A stretch of DNA of 64,000 bases. Origin: Octopus vulgaris (taxonomy: Eukaryota). Where the stretch lies: contig OX597819.1 of NCBI GenBank assembly GCA_951406725.2, positions 81,716,001 to 81,780,000 of the forward strand, read 5' to 3'. A model generated the notes under the pieces. The model was not told where the DNA came from, made no database searches, and worked only from the letters and a program-made list of their open reading frames with translations. The translations under genes were made by a program, and so were the position numbers. Shown piece after piece: positions 38,712 through 60,558 of the stretch (position 1 is its first letter; every line of letters begins with the position of its first letter).

Positions 38712-39649
38712 GTTAGTTAATATCACACATCCAGTGAACCTTGTTCAGCACATATCTGTAAAGACTTCATAGATCTTCAACACTCAGTTCCCATGTTTGT
38801 CTGCTTTGCAACACAATGGTTTATGAAGTCTTTGTTCAGTATACCTTTGCATATTAAAAAAATTCTTTGTTGCCAACAGAAACAATTAAATTAAGGTTTC
38901 AAGCTGGTAGAAACGTTAGCATGCCAGGTGAAATACTTAGTGATATTTCGTCTGTCTTTACGTTCTGAATTCAAATTCCGCCGAGGTTTGACTTTGCCTT
39001 TCATCCTTTTGGGGTCGATAAATTAAGTACCAGTTGTGTACTAGGGTCAATCTAATCGACTGGTCCCCTCCCCACAAATTTCGGGCCTTGTGCTTAGAGT
39101 AGAAAAGAAACAATTAAATTGGCTAGTTTTACACTTAGGTAGCTGATTTTTATATTTTTGCAAAGCACGGCTTTACAAAGAGATGATCATAGGCTACCCT
39201 TTTCTGATATTTTCTATAAAATAAGCAAGGCTACTGCATTTATATATATATATATGTAGTTTTATATCCAACTTCTTTTGTTGCTTATATGAGTTGGATG
39301 GTTTCTATTGGTGCGTGTGTTTTTACATATGAATGCTCTTCTTATTGCTAACAACTCAGCTCAGTCATGCTAATTTAACCACAACAATAGTTCCAAGAAC
39401 TCCTTATAACAACCTTCTCCAACACCTATTGGATCATCTATGTAATGGAAACTTAACCTCTGTTCTAAGCAATTAATAGATTTCATTTTATGGATGGTGT
39501 CACTGATATTATTGAGGTGATCTGTGAGAAGGTAACATGGTACAGTGCATAAGGAGAAAAGGATCTTAGGCGAGGCAAAGCAATTCCTCAAGAGGAAGAG
39601 CGCCAGGTACACATTAATGAAGTGCAATTTTCTGTCATCCTGGACAGGT

Positions 39650-40560
39650 CTTCATATTTGGGATCCAAGCACTCTTGTTATTTCTTTTGAGAGGATTGGA
39701 GAGCTAAGAATCCTGACAGCATTCCTTGCTGTTTTTGATGCATCTGTTGTTTGTGCTTCTGCTGTTGTTACTGCTGCTGCTACCACCAGACACCTACTCT
39801 GCCTCATAGAGTACAGCCACAGAGTTGTATCAATCTTCTCTGAACCCTACATGAACCTCTGACCCCTACACGAGCATCCTGCTTCTGGGCTGGATTTAGA
39901 GGCATCCACTGTGTGCATAGCTGAACGAAACCCTTATGTCCGTACTTATGGGATTGTGTGAAATGCTTGTCTACTAATTTAAGGAAGATCCTTCCCAAGC
40001 AGATTTTGACATTCAGTGAGAAGGGTAAAGCAACAAAACCAAAAGACCTTATGGTGACACTTTCTTTTGTGGGTTTTAAGTCCTGGCATAGAGGAGATGT
40101 GGTACTTAAACATGCTGGCTGCCAAAGCCTCGTTGTTGAAAATGTCTTTATTCAAGGACAGATTCAATATACTGTTTTCTTGGTATAATGTCTATGAATT
40201 TTTCTGTTCCTTTCTTTGTTACCCTGGGCTCTCCTATGAAAGCAAATATAGTTCTTCGATAATCTCCATACCTTGGTCTTTGTACTTCTGTATTTTATTG
40301 AGTTCTTTGACCATTAGATTGTTGTCTGTGAGGATAGCCATATCAGTTAGGAGACAAGTTTTATTAATATGTTTTTTGTTATTGTTACATCTAGATGATT
40401 TGTCTTGATAGTTCTTTTGGTATGAATTATAAAATCACAAAGAATGTTAACATGACCAATCTCAGTGACTGGTTGGGGAAGGTATTCAAACCAGATTTTG
40501 GTCTTTTCTTTTGCATAGTGCTACAGATTTTCCTATGAATATATTGCACTATTTGGTGAT
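39650..40560 (-). mobile_element. Penelope-like retroelement coding remnant
   Basis: Fragments LSLNKDIFNNEAL, KVFWF and GRIFLKLVDKHFTQSHKY resemble the PLE RT-linker region (IWFNPPF..NIG..FL.L.DKHF). Confidence 0.65.
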
Positions 40561-43032: not shown

Positions 43033-44312
43033 GTAAGTATGAATGCTATTATTGCTGTTTAGTGAAAATGAAAAAAAAAAAAAGAAAATTTATTAGTGGT
43101 AGCTAATTCGGAAGGTGGAGTGCGAGATGTTTATAAAACATGAATTTTAAAATTTCATTAAAGGTTAAAAAAAAAAAAAAAAGATCCCCCACTCCATCAC
43201 CGTTTCTTTCTTTTCTTTTTTTTTTTTTTTTTGAAATGTTGGATGCTAAAAAAATTTGTAAAAATTACGAAAAAATCAAAAACGGAGAAATTCCGGGACG
43301 GCTATACCGAAAGTTCCAGTCCTAATCAAAGTTAAATTTGATCAACAATATCTTCCTCCATAAAAAAAAGACGTTTGTAGTTTTGTGTTAATATTAGAAA
43401 TAAACATGAAATTTGAGTGAAAACAGTCGATTCCTACAATTCGATGGTGAATTAGATGTCGTTATTTCAGTTGACACCGAAATTCAACTCCCGGTGTAAC
43501 CCGAAATATATACATAACAGAAAACAAAACCCGAAATAAAATCTGAATGGTATGTAGATTCTATGTTTATTGCTTTATTAATCAACTATATTAATTTTAT
43601 AATAATTTAAATACCTGAAAACTCTGTAAAAATATATTTGGATCAAGTTTTATATTTCTAATTTCTTAAAATAATGCAGATTTTCATGTCATTGCAAAGG
43701 TCATAAAGACACCGGTACTCGTTGTCGTTTATCAATTAACATTGATCGAACAAATCTGTGATCAAAGGTATTTCTAGCTGTAGTAAATTATCCCGTCTTA
43801 GTTGTCGCATCCAGTACACCTTATTATTCCAATGAGCCACTTTTCTAAAGGCAGTAACAAGCAATTTAAGGGAGCTTGGTTGCTATTTTGTTGACGCGTG
43901 CTTCATTTGAACCCTAACTTCTTTATTAGGTTTTATGATACAAAACTAAAATATAGATACTTATATTTACCTATCTTATGATGTTTTGATGTAGAGGTTA
44001 ATGTTTATAAAAGACATAATTATATTTATGTTTGCAATTTAGTTGAGGAAAAAGTTTGGAATTGTAGTAAAATCGGCATAGACTTCGTTTCTTACATAAT
44101 CTTGTGAAAAATTCCTAATTCTGAACGAAATTTTCCCGAGATACGTTTCATCAGGTGTAGATTACGATTATGTCAGAACTTTTGGAGGGAGGAGAGGAGT
44201 TTCGAATAATTCAAATATTTTATAATGGGCATGAAGGTTTAGATACCTGAGAAGTATCTCCTCCCATTATAATTGTTTTGCAGTTTCAAGGAGCTGGAAC
44301 GGGTCGCCGATT

Positions 44313-49521: not shown

Positions 49522-49610
49522 ATGGCACGAAGACTTCAGCGATCACTCAACAAAATTTTTTATCCCCTAAGTTTCATTGGAACAATTGCTGGTGCTTCAG
49601 TATTGCTTAA
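49522..49610 (+). CDS. RDH13: RDH13-like SDR, coding exon 1
   Basis: MARRLQRSLNKIFYPLSFIGTIAGASVLLK versus RDH13 LLPLSALGTVAGAAVLLK; GTAAGT donor; AG acceptor at 49513-49514 implies an upstream UTR exon. Confidence 0.9.
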
Positions 49611-49716
49611 GTAAGTTCTTTATAATTGATTGTGTGCAGCTAATTAATTATTTAAGATATCTATTATGTATGCATATCCTCCTCCTCCTCCTCATCATCA
49701 TTATTGCCAATTAATG

Positions 49717-51008
49717 AAACCACATAACTAATTTAATCTCCAAATAAAAAATCCAAACAACCCAGATAATATCTAAACAGAAACCATATAATCATGTTGA
49801 CTGATATCTAAACAACAAGATTACTTTAACTGGTTTATCTTCAAATATCAAAATCATATAAGCTTAACCTTCAAATAACAAAACCACATATAAACTCGAT
49901 AGCAAAACTACACATCCTGTTTAACTTCCAAATTAGAAATCCATATGAGCTGGTTAATATTTAAATATCAAAACCATGTCATCATCATTTTAACATCCAT
50001 TTGTGTATGCTTTCATGGGTCAGATGGAATTTGTTGCGGTAAATTTTCTACAGCTGGATGCTCTTCATGTCATCTGTTCTCAACTAAAGTAATATTTCCC
50101 CATGACCAAACATGTTTTTGAGGAAGTTTGGTAAAGAAGGATACTTTTTGTATGATGGTGACACTCATTTACAACTACCCTGTGATATCAAGACAAGGAG
50201 ATAGTAACACACACAATGGGCTTTTGTCAGCTTCCATCTACCATATGTACTCAAGGCCTTGGTTGACCCAGGGCGATAGTAGAAGACATTTGCCCAAGGT
50301 GTCACATAGTGGGCATGAACCTGGAACCATGTAAGCAAACTTCTTACCACACAGTGACTCTTATAACAAAACTACATATCCTAGTTAATATCCAAATAAC
50401 AAAGCCATGTAAACTGGTTAATATTTACCATAAATCCTCGAGTATAGTCTGCCCTTGAGTATAATACACAAGGGATTTTTAGGGGGCTGTACCTCTGAAA
50501 AACCTAAACCTTGTGTATAATATGCACCCCTTCTCTAACTTGAGTCATGCGTAATTAAGCCAGCAGGACCTAGTCAAACAAACACTTTCACGCATGCATA
50601 ATACAATAATGGTGATGTTCTTAACTGTTATATGGGAATGTAAATATGTTTGCAAATTGTTTTTGTTACATGTTATTCTGTGTTCTGAATACTTTTATTT
50701 TAATAAACGTTGGTTACTGCAAGTTATAGATGATTCTTTTATGACTTCATTGCTTTCAGGCTTAGGTATAGGTATTTTCACATCTGACATCACAAAATGC
50801 ATCTGAATAAACATTGCCGGACAGCAAATAGAGATTCAGACATTGCTTAGAAAATATTTTTCATTTTTAACCTCATATATAGTATGCACTAGGGATTTTG
50901 ACCTTTAAATTTTTGGAAAAAAATGCAATTATACTTGAGGATTTACAGTAAGTAACAAAACCTCATAAGTTCTAAGAAAACTACATATACTGGCTAATAT
51001 CCAAGTAC
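49717..51008. repeat. degenerate ~33-bp minisatellite split by two insertions
   Basis: Units resembling AAACCACATAAACTGGTTAATATCCAAATAAC at 49717-49980, 50367-50427 and 50951-51008. Confidence 0.7.
50428..50948. mobile_element. Tc1/mariner-superfamily (Tc2/pogo-like) MITE
   Basis: TA TSD; TIRs CCATAAATCCTCGAGTATA / TATACTTGAGGATTTACAG. Confidence 0.85.
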
Positions 51009-51122
51009 ATAATCATTTATTGTATCAGTCAGTCTCCAGTTTTCTTACACCAGTCTAATTTATGCCTTAAGATTTAAATCAGAAAAACTAACTATTGGAG
51101 TTATATGTTTTTATTTTGTTAG

Positions 51123-51241
51123 GGACTATCTTGGTGGTTCCAAATATGAAGGGAAAGAGAAGATTGCTGGTAAGACAGTTGTCATAACTGGAGCCAACAG
51201 TGGCATTGGGAAGGCTGTTGCTACAGGTCTGGCAAATAAAC
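51123..51241 (+). CDS. RDH13: RDH13-like exon 2 (Rossmann TGxxxGxG)
   Basis: DYLGGSKYEGKEKIAGKTVVITGANSGIGKAVATGLANK; TAG/GTGAGT. Confidence 0.96.
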
Positions 51242-51707
51242 GTGAGTTTATTTCTTTCATTTATATTTCAATTACATACCCCACTGACTCTCCATCAACT
51301 TGACCCTCTATCATACTTTAGCCTTGGTATAAAGCCACCTCCTCGCTTCCTTGAACACACCACCTCATTTAGTAGCTGGAGTTATTTCCCCTTTTCTCTC
51401 TCTCTCTGTCTTGCAAGTTACGTAACACCTTTACTAGGCCAATGGTTGGCATTAGGAAGGGCATCCAACTGCGGAAATTATTCCAAAGCTGACTCTGGAG
51501 CTTGAAGAAACCTTGCAGCTTGCCAAATCCTGTTAAAGTGTTCAATCCATGCCAACATGGAAAACATGTTAAAGTGAGATTTTTCTGTAACAAATGCTCC
51601 ATAAATGACTAAACTATATTAGCTTTAAATGTTATATTGGATTGAAATAATTTATGGAGTGTTAAAATACATTTAAATCTGAAGAAATGTATGTATTTCT
51701 TTTCTAG

Positions 51708-51863
51708 GTGGAAGGATAATTCTTGCCTGTCGTAACATGGAACGATGTGCTGAAGCTCAGAAAGAAATCATACACCAGACTGCCAACTTAAATATTCACT
51801 GCAGAAAACTAGATCTTGCTTCCATCAAATCTATTAAGGCATTTGCTGATGCATTTAACAAAA
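51708..51863 (+). CDS. RDH13: RDH13-like exon 3
   Basis: RGRIILACRNMERC...HCRKLDLASIKSIKAFA; TAG/GTAAGT. Confidence 0.96.
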
Positions 51864-52262
51864 GTAAGTGACTGCTTTTTTTTTTGTTTACTGAAATGCA
51901 CACACACATGCACACATTAAATCAAAGACTGGAATTTATGATATTGTCTTTTATTCTTTATGATCATTTCTACACAATATGGGAAATACATTTCATAACT
52001 GTAAATATCAATATGAGTATAAATGAATTCATAATATTGTAATTATATATTTTTTACAAGTATGTAATTCATAGGCATTTCCTTGGACGAAGTCTTTTCT
52101 TTAAGATAAACCATCTACAGATATACAATCTTTTAAGTGATATTTGCAGAAATGCTTACTGCAGAGCCAGCTCAGCTCTTAATCCCTTTTACTTGATATA
52201 TGTACAAAACATACATGTTTTAGTCTAAAATACTTAGATAACTGGGCTATTTATTTTTTCAG

Positions 52263-52367
52263 CTGAAAACCGTTTAGACATTCTAATTAACAATGCAGGG
52301 GTGATGTGCACTCCTAAATCCTTAACTGAAGATGGTTTTGAACAACAGCTAGGAGTAAATTATTTAG
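52263..52367 (+). CDS. RDH13: RDH13-like exon 4 (NNAG)
   Basis: [34 protein letters not shown]; CAG/GTAAGT. Confidence 0.97.
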
Positions 52368-53064
52368 GTAAGTTGATTATATTTTTGACACAGCTTTATC
52401 TTCTCAAGTGTAAAAGAAAACAAAAAAAAAAAACCACTACATTTTAACATCATTTCAGTAGGAAAACAAAGACAATAGAAATTAGATTTCTTCTGAAAGA
52501 AATGTTACTGAGCCATAAATTTCAACAAAACACTTAACTGATATTGTTATTTTAGTTTTTTGTCACACATTCTGTGACCTCTCCAATGACTGTCTGTCCC
52601 ATGGAATAAGCAGAACAAGTGAAGACACATGAGATAAAGAATCACTGAAGAGGTCACAAGATGTGTGACAAAGAGCTTTGATAAAGAAACTGAAGCAATG
52701 GTAATAAAGCTGAAGTGAAGGCCAAATATATAATGTCTGTTTAATTGGCAAAATATGACTTTCTCCAAGTATAACAATATCTGTTTCAACACATGATTTC
52801 ACATCTGCAATCTTGCAAAAGAAATACTTAAATAATATTATCACTAATCAGTCAAGTATAAGGTTAGATTGTTAAGGAATTATTTTACATAAATTAGAAT
52901 GTTGCATAAAAGCACAAATTAGCATCAACTGAAAATTTGTGTCTTCATATTATTCTTCCCTTCACCATATCTGCATTATTATTTTTATTTGTGATTTATT
53001 TGCTGAAATCAATTCAGTATGAAATTTGTTGTTGAAAATTCAATATTTTTGTTAAATTTTGCAG

Positions 53065-53274
53065 GCCATTTCTTACTGACAGTTTTACTTTTGGACAAAT
53101 TAAAAAAATCTGCACCAAGTCGTATTCTGAATATTTGTAGTCATTCTTTTAAAAACGGTTCCATGAACTGGCAGGATTTGAATAGTGCACAGAAGTATGA
53201 TGACCGTGAAGCATTTTACCAAAGTCACCTAGCAAAAGTTCTCTTCACAACTGAACTTGGCAGACAACTTGAAG
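53065..53274 (+). CDS. RDH13: RDH13-like exon 5 (active-site helix, atypical)
   Basis: GHFLLTVLLLDKLKKSAPSRILNICSH...KYDDREAFYQSHLAKVLFTTELGRQLE; CAG/GTAAAT. Confidence 0.96.
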
Positions 53275-53750
53275 GTAAATAGTCATTATGTATCTTATAA
53301 TGCCAACATAACTAAACAAAATATTTTGGGGGTTTATTTAAACCTTTAACATTCAAATTGGTCATATCCAATTCAAATTTTCTGTTTTATGTTTAAAGCA
53401 GCCGCATCTGGCCTTTCACACATGCCCTACAATGTCATCCTAAAAAATAAACAACCACATCGCCAAATAATGCAGGACTCATTCAAAACAATGTGAATAA
53501 TATGCTTTACATTTGACAGAGTAACTGACTGCTAAATGGTTAAAATCTAAGCTATGTTAATCTCTTTTTTTTTTATTTTACATTTTTTATGATACTACTT
53601 GAATTTATTTATCTTTTTGACAAATATAATTTTTACAAACACTAAAATTATCAATTAGTCTTCAGCTATATATATATCAATAATAATAATAATAATGATT
53701 ATAACGAAGTAGCATCGCACTACCTTTAATTCATTTATGTATACAGCTTT

Positions 53751-53781
<31 letters not shown>

Positions 53782-53865
53782 GTATATGTTATATGCATTC
53801 AGTGAAAGTCAATATCAAATAAGATGTTTTAGAGTTTCTAATGATTTTCTTTTCTTCTCACTTAG

Positions 53866-54073
53866 GTTCTGGAGTTACTGTAAATGCTGTCTACCCAGGT
53901 GTTACTAATACAAATCTAGGCACCCATCTTGGAATCAATAAATCATATATTTCTAGTATATTATTGTGGCCTGTTAAATGGATCTTACTGAAAACTCCTA
54001 TGCAAGGTGCACAAACAGCATTATTTTGCAGTGTTGACCCCAGCCTTGAAACTGTTTCAGGACACTACTTCTG
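53866..54073 (+). CDS. RDH13: RDH13-like exon 6
   Basis: GSGVTVNAVYPGVTNTNLGTH...WILLKTPMQGAQT...VSGHYF; TAG/GTATGG. Confidence 0.95.
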
Positions 54074-54421
54074 GTATGGTTAACTCTGTTTTATTTTTAA
54101 TATTTTCAATAATCCTGATTGATAAAAGGTTTCAACCTAGCAGAATTGTTACCATGCCGGGCAGAATGCTTAGCAGTATTTGGTCTGTCTTTATATTCAG
54201 AGTTTGAATTCTATTGAGATCGACTTTGCCTTTCATTCTTCTGGGGTCGATAAAATAAGTACCAGTTGAGCACTGGTGGTTGATATAATCAAATTGCCCC
54301 ATCTCCCAAAAATTGCTGGCCTTGTGCCAAATTTTTTTATATTTTTACTCATCTATCTCTTATTTCATCTGAATATCTGTTTATTTGGTGAACAACAGCA
54401 TAATCAATAATTATAAATTTC

Positions 54422-54821
54422 GAATCTTTTCAGTTTGAACAGCAGTTTTTTTCTAGCGGTGTCATATGAAATTGTCTCTCATAATTATGACCCTAGAATC
54501 GATCTATTGCATTTCAATCTCTTTTAGGGTTAGGGGTGGGGGAAGGGTATCTTTTTTTCTTCACAAATGTAAATAAACCCAATCTGTTTCTTAAACGAGG
54601 GACATATTCATACGGCACAGAATGCTTTTTAACTCAATAGACGTATTTGATTGGTTGAAATTGCCAAAATTGAAGAAAATATCTTACAAACTATAGAATT
54701 TTCTCAATAAAGCCAAGAGAAAAAGATGTTTTATAAACACATTCTACCAGTATACGAAGTTTAAAATTTTTTAGTTACCTAGAAATTATGTTAAAAACTG
54801 CCGTTCAAACTGAAAAGATCC
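54422..54821. mobile_element. MITE with 8-bp TSD (hAT/P-like)
   Basis: TIRs ATCTTTTCAGTTTGAACAGCAGTTTTT / AAAAACTGCCGTTCAAACTGAAAAGAT; flanks taaatttc / tagatttc. Confidence 0.88.
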
Positions 54822-55024
54822 TAGATTTCTAATGAGCCAGCCACTGGTTCATGACATTTCTGATGGTGAGAATGACAAGAGAGCATTGATGGAATTTTTA
54901 TTTGAAGCTTTGGGCTGATCAAAGTCTTGTGAGTGGATTTGGTATATGAAAATTAAAAGATTTGTATGTTTATAATCGATCATATAGAAAGCTTGGAAAG
55001 ACAACTGTTTTTTATTTTTTTCAG

Positions 55025-55121
55025 CAACAACAAAGAGATGGAGTTTCCAACAAATGCTTTAGATACAGAAGCAGCCAAAAGACTGTGGCTTATTAGTGAA
55101 AAGTGGATGGGAATAAATTAA
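55025..55121 (+). CDS. RDH13: RDH13-like last coding exon
   Basis: CNNKEMEFPTNALDTEAAKRLWLISEKWMGIN*; CAG acceptor; AATAAA at 55151-55156. Confidence 0.95.
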
Positions 55122-57693: not shown

Positions 57694-58307
57694 TTACAAC
57701 ATTCCAGGCGTAATCTTTCCTCTTTTAATAGATTTCTTTGATTTTGATGTTTTTACTTTGTCTTTTCTTTTCTCAATATTTCTGACACGTTTTGCCTGTT
57801 TTGCATCCTGCTTCTTCTTCACATTATCTTCACGTTCTTCCCATGCCTTCTTGCGTTTCATTTTTAATTTCTCTTTTCTCTTCAGAGCTTTTTTTAAAAG
57901 CTGGGGATTATCCTTGATTTTTTTCCCCATTGCCTTGTCCAGTGCAGCCTTCATTTTAGCATCTGATCTCAACTTGTCAGCAGCTTCAGAATCTGTTATT
58001 GCCAGCTCTTTCAATTTCTTCTCAGATTTCTCTACTTTAGCTAGAAGCTGTTTGTAATTCTTACCATGAAGTCCTGTTATAGTTTTGCGTTTTTTTTTAT
58101 TAGAGTCACCAATTTCAAGAGATCCGTATAAAAACTTCTCTTCCTGGTTTACTTGTGGAACATCTTTTTCCAATTTCTTGTTTTCCTTTTTAGTTGGATT
58201 CTCTGTCTTTGCAGAGAGAGACTTTTTCTTCTTTTGAAGTTTCTTTTCTTGTTTCTTTATACGCCGTCTTTCCAAAACAACACCTCTTTCAAGTAATTTA
58301 CGTTTGG
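57694..58307 (-). CDS. SURF6: surfeit locus protein 6, last exon
   Basis: Lys-rich; GKNYKQLL, KAMGKKIKDNPQLLKKALKRKEK..K.KKAWEER, KRGKITPG match the SURF6/Rrp14 domain; cctttcattttag acceptor. Confidence 0.93.
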
Positions 58308-60558
58308 CTAAAATGAAAGGAAAGTATAATTAGTAAATTTAGTTATTTAAAAGTTTTGTGATCATATTAACAATGAAATATGTATTTTAATCAATTTTGT
58401 AAAATAATAATAAAGTATTTAAATAAAATGACTTTTACATTGTGACTAGCTGGTGCTTGGAACATAAAATTGCGAAAAGTGTTAATTTAATCATTTAGTA
58501 TTTAGCTCTTTAGCATTCAAATTACCGTCAAATGTAATGCTTATTAATTCACATTGTTTTGAATTAATCATGCATTATCTTGCAGCCTTGAGATTTCAAT
58601 GATGTGAATGTTAGTTTCAAATGACATTCATGGGTAGATGTGGGAGGCCAAATCTAGCCAGTTTGACCACAAAGCAAGTAGAATATTTTGGTCAGATATG
58701 GCCAGTTTAAATGCTAAAGGGTTAAAGCAGCCACATCTGGCCAGATCCAGCCTCTCACCACACCTGTACTACAATGTCATTCAAAAAAAAAAAAAAAAAA
58801 AAAAAATCATATCACTGAAATCTTGAAGCTACAAAATAATGTATAATTAATTCAAAACAAAGCAAATAAATAAATATTACATATGATAAAGTAGAACAGA
58901 GAACAGGCACACATTACATACTCTGGTTTTCTTATTTACCTTACTCTCCCACCCCAAACCACTTCTAATTCCCATTATTGTCCTCCACCTACTATCTCCA
59001 CCAATCACCTTTCTGTGCCTTCTCTCTCCTGTGCTGTTCTCTACCATTAAACCATTAAAACCTTGCTTATCTGCTATCACCCTCAATGCCCTCATATCTA
59101 CCACAACCCTTGCACCCCTGAGCCTCACCTATATTTCTCAACATCGTTTACTTGTCATCTCTAACCTGCCCATTAACCCAGTCCAAACTTCTGTATCACC
59201 TCACTTATTCTCACCACCTTTAATGTCCTGACATCTTTACCATAATCTCTTTCACTACACTCTCCTTATCTTAGCCTCTAACTCATTCTCCTTTCTTTCC
59301 CAGTTGAAGTGTCCATGTATCTACTGCAGGTCACCTATCTCTCTATACTATTAATCTCTCAACTGGCACAAAGCAACCCCTCTCCAATACTACTCCCCCA
59401 CTCCCATTTGAGTGTTTTTTGCCTTTCTCTTGCAAGGTACTTGGAGACCCTGTTGGTGATGGTGACATGCAAAAGAACATCATGTACAGTGTAAAGTGGT
59501 TGGTGTTAGGAAGGACATCCAACTGTAGAAACCATGTCGAAACAGACAACAAAGCCTGGTACAACTTATGGCCTTGTCAGCTCCTGTCAAACTATTCAAC
59601 TCATGCCAATTTGGAAAATAAATGTCAAATGATGATGATTAAGAGGAGGTAGAATCAACCAGTTGAAACTAAAAAGTTAAGATTTAGTATTAAATTTTAT
59701 TTTCACTGGAAAATCAGATTTAGCATGTGATGGCTCTTAAATATGCTTCTTTATGCAACTTAGAGTAGAATGTTAAATAGAAACAAAAATATCTAAATGA
59801 AATTTTTCATACTTCATTATTTGGTCCGAGATAATGTGATGAGAAAATACTTGGGCTCTGATCGCAACATATATATAGTTAACATTTTTATGTATAAATT
59901 TTGCTAACCATAAGGCCGTGTAGTCCAGCACATTTTCAGTTTGTTGTACATTGCAGTGAGATATCATTTAATGTCTGTTTTCTATGCTGGCAAGCTGGGG
60001 AGAATCAGGCTCTAGTCTAATTTGGCATGGTTTCTATAGGCGAATGCCCTTCCTAATGCCAACCACTTAGTGTGTTGGATGCTTTTACGTGGCACCACAC
60101 AGAAACTTTTATGAGGTACTGTACAGGCGCTTTTGTGTAGCACCGCACGGGCACTACCATGAGTGCTTTACACCATCAGAGAGACCAATTAATACTCCTG
60201 CTGCAGAATATGTCTTTTAATATATAGAATATTAAGGCATTAAGCTGGCAGAATTGTCAGCATGTCAGGCAAAATGCTTAGAGGCATTTCATCAATCTTT
60301 ATGTTCTAAGTTCAAATCCCACTGGGGTCGATGTAATTGACTTACTCCTCCTCCGAAATTGCTGGCATTGTGCCAAATTTGAAAATAATAAGTAGAAAAG
60401 TTTACTTTTCATAAACCCAATAAGCCCTAACTCATAACCTCTGAAACACTAATTTATTCAAAAGTTTTACATCAGTAGTATTAAAGGGCTACTAAGAAGA
60501 TATTAAATTAATGTTGCATATTTGCTGATAATTGATTAGCAGATAATTTTCTACTTAC

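What the first reader, a model, noticed from the sequence alone, without database searches (positions are those of the whole stretch)
53214..53237. Intact RDH13-like gene lacking the SDR catalytic Tyr and Lys
Seen: all seven exons are open and spliceable, and TGANSGIG, the NADP-type ACR, NNAG, the GVN Asn and the catalytic-position Ser are kept. The helix that reads AAYCQSKLAI in RDH13 reads EAFYQSHLAK here (Y to F, K to H), with a new Tyr one residue and a new Lys three residues downstream. Established: YxxxK is essential in classical SDRs. A-to-I editing cannot restore TTT or CAC. Inference: either a pseudoenzyme (NADP/retinoid-binding sensor or scaffold) or a rewired active site.
Basis: partly seen in the sequence, partly recalled or inferred. 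Interest (0 to 1): 0.75.

Follow-up and report, generated by a model that had tools for sequence, protein, structure and literature searches.

The report
Cephalopod RDH13 lost its catalytic residues
Octopus, argonaut and cuttlefish keep an intact, spliced gene for the enzyme RDH13 that lacks its two key catalytic amino acids, so it likely works as a non-catalytic, cofactor-binding protein, hinting that this little-understood mitochondrial enzyme may have a second job.

Summary
A seven-exon gene (49522-55121, + strand) encodes a 327-aa RDH13 identical to a public Octopus vulgaris protein. Its YxxxK helix reads F207-Y-Q-S-H211-L-A-K214. Spliced contigs from four studies carry the same codons, so this is not an assembly error. 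All 17 coleoid sequences fetched read AFxQS[H/Q]LAK, whereas 190 and 189 of 191 other RDH13 relatives keep Tyr and Lys. A third near-invariant residue, Arg246 (189 of 191), is also lost. The cofactor motifs, fold and membrane anchor are kept, and constraint between octopods and cuttlefish persists. No canonical RDH13 paralogue was found in this genome. The 'new Tyr' idea fails, because that site is Tyr, Ser or Cys across coleoids. Lys214 is fixed but also occurs beside intact motifs. Best reading: an old, maintained pseudoenzyme, likely binding NADP(H) at the mitochondrial inner membrane (0.55). Main rival: a Tyr-free reductase like SimC7 (0.25). Mussel, whipworm and several unnamed invertebrate RDH13s show similar losses, but their independence is unproven. 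No activity, binding or dN/dS was measured. Three look-ups found no earlier scan note on RDH13. This is a new variant of a known kind.

The parts
49522..49610 (+). Coding exon 1: ATG, basic N-terminus and start of the hydrophobic anchor helix
   Evidence: tblastn of P0068/P0069 N-terminus, 100%; joint 49610>51123 GT..AG in 2 of 4 runs
51123..51241 (+). Exon 2: Gly-rich cofactor motif TGANSGIG (51187-51210)
51708..51863 (+). Exon 3: ACR with Arg78 (51731-51733; 2'-phosphate site by family knowledge) and DLAS
52263..52367 (+). Exon 4: NNAG motif and tetrad Asn154 (52358-52360)
53065..53274 (+). Exon 5: tetrad Ser182 (53139-53141) and the altered catalytic helix
   Evidence: (0 differing letters in 4 of 4 runs)
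53214..53216 (+). Phe207 (TTT) at the catalytic Tyr site
   Evidence: Phe in 17 of 17 coleoid sequences; Tyr in 190 of 191 others
53217..53219 (+). Tyr208, the proposed replacement Tyr; not conserved
   Evidence: Tyr 5, Ser 1, Cys 11 of 17
53226..53228 (+). His211 (CAC) at the catalytic Lys site
   Evidence: His 7, Gln 10 of 17 coleoid sequences; Lys in 189 of 191 others
53235..53237 (+). Lys214 (AAA) at a site that is usually Asn
   Evidence: Lys in 17 of 17 coleoid sequences; Asn 163, Lys 1 of 191 others
53866..54073 (+). Exon 6: YPG (HPG in most relatives), Thr242 kept, Thr246 (53922-53924) replacing the near-invariant Arg, lid region
   Evidence: lowest model confidence, pLDDT 62-65 over residues 241-260
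55025..55121 (+). Exon 7 with stop codon

Best explanation
This gene is an intact, spliced RDH13 that lacks the catalytic tyrosine and lysine in every octopod and cuttlefish sequence fetched, and it likely acts as a non-catalytic, probably NADP(H)-binding protein predicted to sit at the mitochondrial inner membrane. Shown: gene structure, transcript, RDH13 identity, loss of Tyr207, Lys211 and Arg246 in both coleoid branches, retention of the Gly-rich, Arg78, NNAG, Asn154, Ser182 and Thr242 positions, and continued constraint on the protein at depth. Inferred: without the Tyr acid and the Lys proton relay, ordinary retinal or aldehyde reduction has stopped or become very slow. Also inferred: the N-terminal helix still anchors the protein in mitochondria, as in human RDH13, and the Rossmann fold still holds NADP(H), perhaps more weakly because Tyr and Lys also bind the nicotinamide ribose. 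Selection would then keep the protein for a structural, partner-binding or redox-sensing role that canonical RDH13 probably also has. One lead for that role is association with the mitoribosome and inner-membrane assembly factors.
For: Fixed in both coleoid branches: 17 of 17 sequences, 4 clusters at 90%, five named species; the clade has SH-aLRT 99-100. The Lys site varies freely between His and Gln, even within one 90% cluster, and Gln at this site strongly reduced or abolished SimC7 activity (PMC5039031, section 12). Arg246 is replaced by four different residues (T, N, G, S), which looks like loss, not redesign. The matching RDH12 sites carry patient variants Y200C, N207D and R239W (PMC3209419, passages; offset of 7 residues). 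Constraint at depth: 78 of 89 family-conserved columns are invariant over four coleoid lineages against 28 of 99 variable columns, p=5e-17; 172 of 327 columns are invariant against 177 for four canonical molluscs. The model is confident (pLDDT 92.9, pTM 0.90) and matches SDR structures (3rd5 Z 37.1, rmsd 1.7, 252 aligned). The N-terminal hydrophobic stretch is kept. Similar losses occur in Mytilus (YDQSQ, 5 of 6 full-length members; the sixth did not match the pattern), Trichuris (YDQSQ), Orussus (FAQSK) and four unnamed representatives (FxxSQ). Mouse RDH13 co-enriches with mitoribosomes (PMC6859486, one passage). Non-catalytic SDRs are established (PMC2792337 section 15; PMC13418739 passages).
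Against: No activity, binding or localisation was tested. Active SDR-fold enzymes without the Tyr exist: SimC7 with Ser-Ile-His, TMR, QOR2 (PMC5039031), and peroxisomal enoyl-CoA reductase (PMC2792337 section 7). In the closest solved family, LPOR, Tyr-to-Phe lowered but did not abolish activity (10.1101/2020.08.19.257774, passage). Ser182 is kept in 9 of 9 aligned coleoids, whereas the other FxxSQ proteins lose it. Constraint is not visible at short range: O. vulgaris and O. bimaculoides differ at 5 of 134 conserved and 7 of 185 variable columns, p=1.0, and 5 of 6 listed differences in organism F contigs are non-synonymous (low depth, listed rows only). O. vulgaris has Asn for the conserved Asp79 beside Arg78. 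NADP binding may be lost as well. The mitoribosome link is a single pull-down in mouse.
Confidence: 0.55

Rival explanations
1. It is still an NADPH reductase, but one that needs no Tyr acid. Ser182, Phe207 and His/Gln211 would form a triad like the Ser-Ile-His of SimC7, delivering hydride to a conjugated or pre-protonated substrate (quinone, enone, retinal Schiff base) with the proton coming from substrate or water.
For: [quoted passage not shown] Ser182, Asn154, Thr242 and all cofactor motifs are kept in 9 of 9 aligned coleoids. Phe207 never varies (17 of 17). Several pocket residues are newly fixed in coleoids: C181, W192, Y236, Q149. RDH13 substrates are conjugated aldehydes (PMC7022914, passages).
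Against: [quoted passage not shown] SimC7 and its relatives belong to another SDR subfamily. Arg246 is lost without a fixed replacement.
Confidence: 0.25
2. The active site was rebuilt with new residues: Lys214 reaches back to take over from Lys211, and His/Tyr183 beside the catalytic Ser supplies the proton.
For: Lys214 is in 17 of 17 coleoid sequences and lies on the same helix face as 207 and 211 (340 degrees). Trichuris pairs Gln211 with Arg214. Site 183 is His or Tyr in 9 of 9 aligned coleoids against 1 Tyr and no His in 191 relatives.
Against: Lys214 occurs with an intact YxxxK (P0239, P0318), and His or Tyr at 183 occurs in 20 of 167 aligned stretches of more distant relatives, nearly all canonical. 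Mytilus and the FxxSQ proteins lost Lys without gaining Lys214. Side-chain geometry could not be measured because no coordinates are returned.
Confidence: 0.08
3. The protein is a slowly decaying relic: catalysis was lost in the coleoid ancestor and the remaining constraint only keeps a membrane protein from misfolding, with no real function left.
For: No enrichment of changes at variable columns between O. vulgaris and O. bimaculoides (p=1.0), and 5 of 6 listed organism F differences are non-synonymous. Mouse Rdh13 knockouts are viable (PMC7022914, passage).
Against: The ORF is intact in both coleoid branches. Constraint is clear for Octopus versus Argonauta (p=5e-4) and Sepia versus P0004 (p=6e-5). 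Spliced contigs were found in 8 of 8 runs laid (runs were chosen as holders or their companions).
Confidence: 0.08
4. Tyr208 replaces the catalytic Tyr, or the motif is an assembly error or a young pseudogene.
For: Tyr208 is present in the three Octopus species.
Against: The site is Ser in Argonauta and Cys in all 11 decapodiform-group sequences, it is variable in the family, and it is 100 degrees off the catalytic face. Contigs from four studies match the genome.
Confidence: 0.03

Closest known systems
RDH13 (SDR7C3), NADPH-dependent retinaldehyde reductase of the mitochondrial inner membrane (PMC7022914, passages)
   Same: Best sequence hits are RDH13 proteins at 50-61% identity; the tree places it among protostome RDH13s; N-terminal anchor, NADP-type motifs and seven exons; the junction at c.469 matches the RDH12 donor c.448+1 at the same 7-codon offset.
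   Different: Tyr, Lys and Arg246 lost; Asn214 to Lys, His185 to Phe/Leu, His236 to Tyr; longer basic N-terminus (3-4 K/R in the first 12 residues against 1). Activity and location untested.
Non-catalytic SDRs: NmrA/NMRAL1, MAT2B (PMC2792337 section 15), petunia benzaldehyde synthase beta subunit (PMC13418739, passages), BbsC (title seen in that reference list)
   Same: SDR fold kept while tetrad residues are replaced; maintained by selection.
   Different: Those are separate families or partner subunits beside an active paralogue. Here the only RDH13 copy found in the genome is the altered one, and no partner is known.
Tyr-free SDR reductases SimC7, TMR, QOR2 (I/LxxxH motif; PMC5039031)
   Same: Ser kept, hydrophobic residue at the Tyr site, His at the Lys site in octopods.
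   Different: Different subfamily; 10 of 17 coleoid sequences have Gln, which strongly reduced or abolished SimC7 activity; no substrate known.
Light-dependent protochlorophyllide oxidoreductase and 3rd5 (closest solved structures)
   Same: Top fold matches: 7jk9 TM 0.77; 3rd5 Z 37.1; YPG at the same place as LPOR.
   Different: They keep YxxxK; 25-37% identity; a shared fold says nothing about function.

Membership tests
RDH13 orthologue group (SDR7C3) | Groups with RDH13 rather than RDH11/12/14-like paralogues | tested here: met
   Inside the RDH13 side in quick ML trees (branch support 89-94; protostome RDH13 clade 98-99); AU rejects a clade with the two own-genome intronless paralogues tested, p=0.003. 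Exact sister group among molluscs unresolved; no bootstrap tree finished.
RDH13 orthologue group (SDR7C3) | Seven exons with SDR7C1-3 type junctions | tested here: met
   Six introns, phases 2,1,1,1,1,2. PMC9859523 gives 122221 for RDH11/12 and Aplysia and 122222 for human RDH13; my phases are the mirror of the first formula, and RDH12 c.448+1 supports reading it as mirrored. This marks SDR7C1-3, not RDH13 alone.
RDH13 orthologue group (SDR7C3) | N-terminal anchor and mitochondrial location | tested here: inconclusive
   Hydrophobic 19-residue window, mean 1.49, like macaque and camel RDH13; helix 2-33 in the model; location not testable.
Classical catalytic SDR | Rossmann fold with TGxxxGxG | tested here: met
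   PF00106 E=3.7e-32; motif invariant; fold matches.
Classical catalytic SDR | Tetrad Asn and Ser | tested here: met
   Asn154 and Ser182 in 9 of 9 aligned coleoids.
Classical catalytic SDR | YxxxK | tested here: not met
   FxQS[H/Q] in 17 of 17 coleoid sequences.
Classical catalytic SDR | NADPH-dependent carbonyl reduction | not testable with these tools
   Needs an assay.
Divergent SDR (YxxMxxxK, GxxxxxSxA) | Cofactor motif GxxxxxSxA and Tyr three residues before the Met site | tested here: not met
   Cofactor motif is classical; the residue three before F207 is Arg204; motif definitions from PMC2792337 Table 3.
Tyr-free reductases with I/LxxxH (SimC7, TMR, QOR2) | Hydrophobic-xxx-His motif | tested here: inconclusive
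   FxxxH in 7 of 17, FxxxQ in 10 of 17; Phe rather than Ile/Leu.
SDR pseudoenzyme | Catalytic residues lost while the protein is maintained and expressed | tested here: met
   short-range constraint not shown.
SDR pseudoenzyme | No catalytic activity; a shown non-catalytic role or partner | not testable with these tools
   No assay or interaction data.

The most novel reading that the evidence does not exclude
The conserved job of RDH13 across animals is non-catalytic, for example an NADP(H)-dependent scaffold or sensor at the mitochondrial inner membrane linked to mitoribosomes. Retinal reduction is a dispensable side activity that coleoid cephalopods, mussels, whipworms and an arthropod-like lineage have each eroded separately, several by the same Tyr-to-Phe and Lys-to-Gln changes. 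Cephalopods would be natural separation-of-function mutants.
Probability: 0.25. Interest if true: 0.75.

Novelty: new variant of a known kind. Interest (0 to 1): 0.5.

Why it matters
The physiological role of RDH13 is still open: the review passages read call its roles speculative or yet to be established (PMC7022914). A lineage that keeps the gene, apparently as its only copy, while discarding the catalytic residues separates catalysis from whatever else the protein does. That makes a clean test possible: rescue an RDH13 knockout with the cephalopod protein or a Tyr/Lys mutant. If the protein is active instead, it is an animal SDR with Tyr-free chemistry. Databases name these proteins 'retinol dehydrogenase 13', so cephalopod retinoid pathways drawn from annotation probably include an enzyme that does not do that reaction.

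Tried and rejected
Canonical paralogue in the own genome. Two protein searches (11 and 39 matches) and a degenerate YxQSKLAN pattern (14 matches, control 9; none in an SDR exon) found none of RDH13 type. 30 of the 39 matches were read as loci. Eight further regions covered six of the nine unlisted matches; the other three (C4:57.05 Mb, C30:16.05 Mb, C9:96.14 Mb) lie beside loci already read. All paralogues whose motif was seen keep YxxxK, but they are intronless or have other junctions. The search scores only its best candidates, so absence is not proven.

Independent origin of the FxxSQ proteins. ML trees without the active-site columns put P0293, P0330 and P0373 with arthropod RDH13 (branch 96), but the AU test did not reject one clade with coleoids (p=0.46, p=0.20). 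Convergence is therefore likely but unproven. The Mytilus constraint was tested only with a rough search (p=0.018) and is not relied on. The treekit one-clade test and the careful trees did not finish, and one IQ-TREE script timed out. Rows left out: own_L019 and Trichuris (long branches); 29 of the 62 rows in the AU set; P0330 was cut to 240 residues.

dN/dS. Not computable: no orthologous coding DNA could be fetched, and contigs of relatives gave only 7 listed coding differences. No run was on record as RNA; tissue and expression level cannot be read from contigs.

Nautilus. No sequence was identified among named hits, so the loss is dated only to before the octopod-decapodiform split.

Geometry with NADP. 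Not obtainable, because the fold tools return no coordinates. No complex job was sent, as no binding partner is claimed.

Literature. Ten searches. RDH13+octopus gave 1 unrelated paper. RDH13+Drosophila+mitochondria+catalytically inactive gave 0. None of the 25 listed of 1,941 cephalopod papers held 'retinol dehydrogenase 13'. I found no report of this change, but most subscription papers are not held, and PMC2573044 (the RDH13 enzymology paper) was not available. No supplements were read.

Other. The Atlas search gave only RDH13/14-like clusters. Pfam on single exons was uninformative.

Full report
Observation. The 24 bases at 53214-53237 read FYQSHLAK on the + strand. They lie in exon 5 of a seven-exon gene. 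Its 984-base coding sequence has one terminal stop and translates exactly to P0069, a public O. vulgaris protein of 327 aa. Contigs from four runs of four studies skip introns 2-6 (introns 2-5 listed as GT..AG joints, intron 6 seen as contiguous contig pieces) and match exon 5 with no differing letter; two of the four also join exon 1. Four more runs, two from a more distant relative, join exons 5 and 6 and list no difference in the motif, although some differences near contig ends are not listed. The runs are not on record as RNA, but precise intron skipping shows spliced molecules. A-to-I editing cannot restore Tyr or Lys from these codons.

What it is. The best hits are RDH13 proteins of molluscs, arthropods and vertebrates (best 120 of 1,480 listed). 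Quick ML trees place the coleoid sequences, as one strongly supported clade, among protostome RDH13s; the nearest mollusc relatives are unresolved. The other SDR7C-like genes found in this genome keep YxxxK where the motif was seen, but they are intronless or have other junctions. Those placed on trees fall outside RDH13, and an AU test rejects grouping the gene with two of them (p=0.003). It is therefore the only RDH13 found here, within the limits of the search.

Distribution of the change. All 17 coleoid sequences fetched read AFxQS[H/Q]LAK. They come from four 90% clusters and include isoforms and near-duplicates; the named species are O. vulgaris, O. sinensis, O. bimaculoides, Argonauta hians and Sepia pharaonis. 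Among 191 non-coleoid relatives (top lists-400 aa), 190 keep Tyr and 189 keep Lys. Arg246, kept in 189 of 191, is replaced by T, N, G or S in coleoids. His185 becomes Phe or Leu, His236 becomes Tyr and Asn214 becomes Lys. The cofactor side is unchanged: the Gly-rich loop, Cys77-Arg78, Asp105, NNAG, Asn154, Ser182, Pro-Gly and Thr242. In human RDH12 the matching positions Y200, N207 and R239 carry patient variants (PMC3209419, passages). The loss predates the octopod-decapodiform split; no Nautilus sequence was identified.

Is it maintained? At depth, yes. 78 of 89 family-conserved columns are invariant across Octopus, Argonauta, Sepia and P0004, against 28 of 99 variable columns. Overall invariance (172 of 327) is close to that of four canonical molluscs (177). 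Octopus-Argonauta and Sepia-P0004 each show the same skew (p=5e-4 and 6e-5). At short range the signal is absent. O. vulgaris and O. bimaculoides differ at 5 of 134 conserved and 7 of 185 variable columns, and 5 of 6 listed differences in low-depth contigs of organism F are non-synonymous, three of them at 244-246. These numbers are small but could mean relaxed constraint within Octopus. dN/dS could not be computed. The predicted structure is a complete SDR (pLDDT 92.9), closest to 3rd5 and LPOR.

Mechanism. In classical SDRs Tyr is the acid, and Lys lowers its pKa and binds the nicotinamide ribose (PMC2792337, passages and sections 7 and 15). With both gone, ordinary aldehyde reduction is unlikely. 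Lys214 is on the right face and fixed, and site 183 is His or Tyr, but both also occur in proteins with an intact motif. I favour a pseudoenzyme that keeps the fold, the anchor and probably NADP(H) binding (0.55). The His/Gln exchange and the unpatterned loss of Arg246 look like release from catalysis. The serious rival (0.25) is Tyr-free hydride transfer as in SimC7, whose Ser-Ile-His triad is active, although H112Q strongly reduced or abolished activity (PMC5039031, passages and sections 12-13). LPOR Tyr mutants also retain some activity (10.1101/2020.08.19.257774, passages). What the non-catalytic job would be is not shown. Human RDH13 lies on the mitochondrial inner membrane with an unsettled role (PMC7022914, passages), and mouse RDH13 was co-enriched with mitoribosomes (PMC6859486, one passage). 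That is a lead only.

Beyond coleoids. Nine of the 191 relatives lack at least one of Ser, Tyr or Lys, including Mytilus and Trichuris (Lys to Gln, Ser lost) and Orussus (Tyr to Phe). Among the best 150 representatives at 50% identity, 167 stretches covered the motif: 143 Y/K, 6 F/K, 4 F/Q and 14 other or gapped. The four F/Q proteins are unnamed. Three group with arthropod RDH13 when the active-site columns are removed, but one clade with coleoids is not rejected (AU p=0.20). Repeated loss is the likely reading, not a proven one.

Comparison and novelty. It works most likely like known non-catalytic SDRs (NmrA/NMRAL1, MAT2B, petunia BS-beta). It is a member of the RDH13 group by descent and fails the YxxxK test for a classical catalytic SDR. 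Ten paper searches found no report of the change, with the library's gaps. Three look-ups in earlier scan findings showed no RDH13 note; two listed notes concern other SDRs lacking catalytic residues in other genomes and did not affect this reading. Residue roles for Arg78 and Thr242 are recalled family knowledge, not from a call. Verdict: a real, old, lineage-wide alteration and a new variant of a known kind; interest 0.5.

Noticed in passing
window 57703-58311, minus strand: Exon of a SURF6 (surfeit locus protein 6) gene, tail to tail with the RDH13 gene; Pfam PF04935 E=4.7e-29.
   Followed up: partly
P0293, P0330, P0373, P0287 (unnamed representatives): RDH13-like proteins with FxxSQ, no catalytic Ser and YPG, the same substitutions as cuttlefish; three group with arthropod RDH13 in ML trees.
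   Followed up: partly
P0120 and P0433-P0437 (Mytilus), P0035 (Trichuris), P0176/P0425 (Orussus), P0267 (Helobdella), P0236/P0237 (Lingula): Further RDH13 proteins with partial loss of the tetrad.
   Followed up: partly
191 non-coleoid RDH13 relatives: His155, His185, Asn214 and His236 tend to be lost together: all four kept in 145, all four lost in 12. This may be one hydrogen-bond network; relatedness was not controlled for.
   Followed up: no
window 39490-39534, 40395-40499, 43518-43553: Upstream pieces that a longer annotated isoform (P0068, 382 aa) uses to extend the N-terminus; probably 5' untranslated or predicted exons.
   Followed up: no
L012-L022 (G000 C4, C9, C11, C14, C19, C30): An expanded set of intronless or two-exon SDR7C-like genes with intact YxxxK in this genome; they could supply retinal reductase activity.
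   Followed up: partly
window 51734-51736 (codon 79): O. vulgaris has Asn where O. sinensis, O. bimaculoides and 171 of 191 relatives have Asp, next to Arg78.
   Followed up: no
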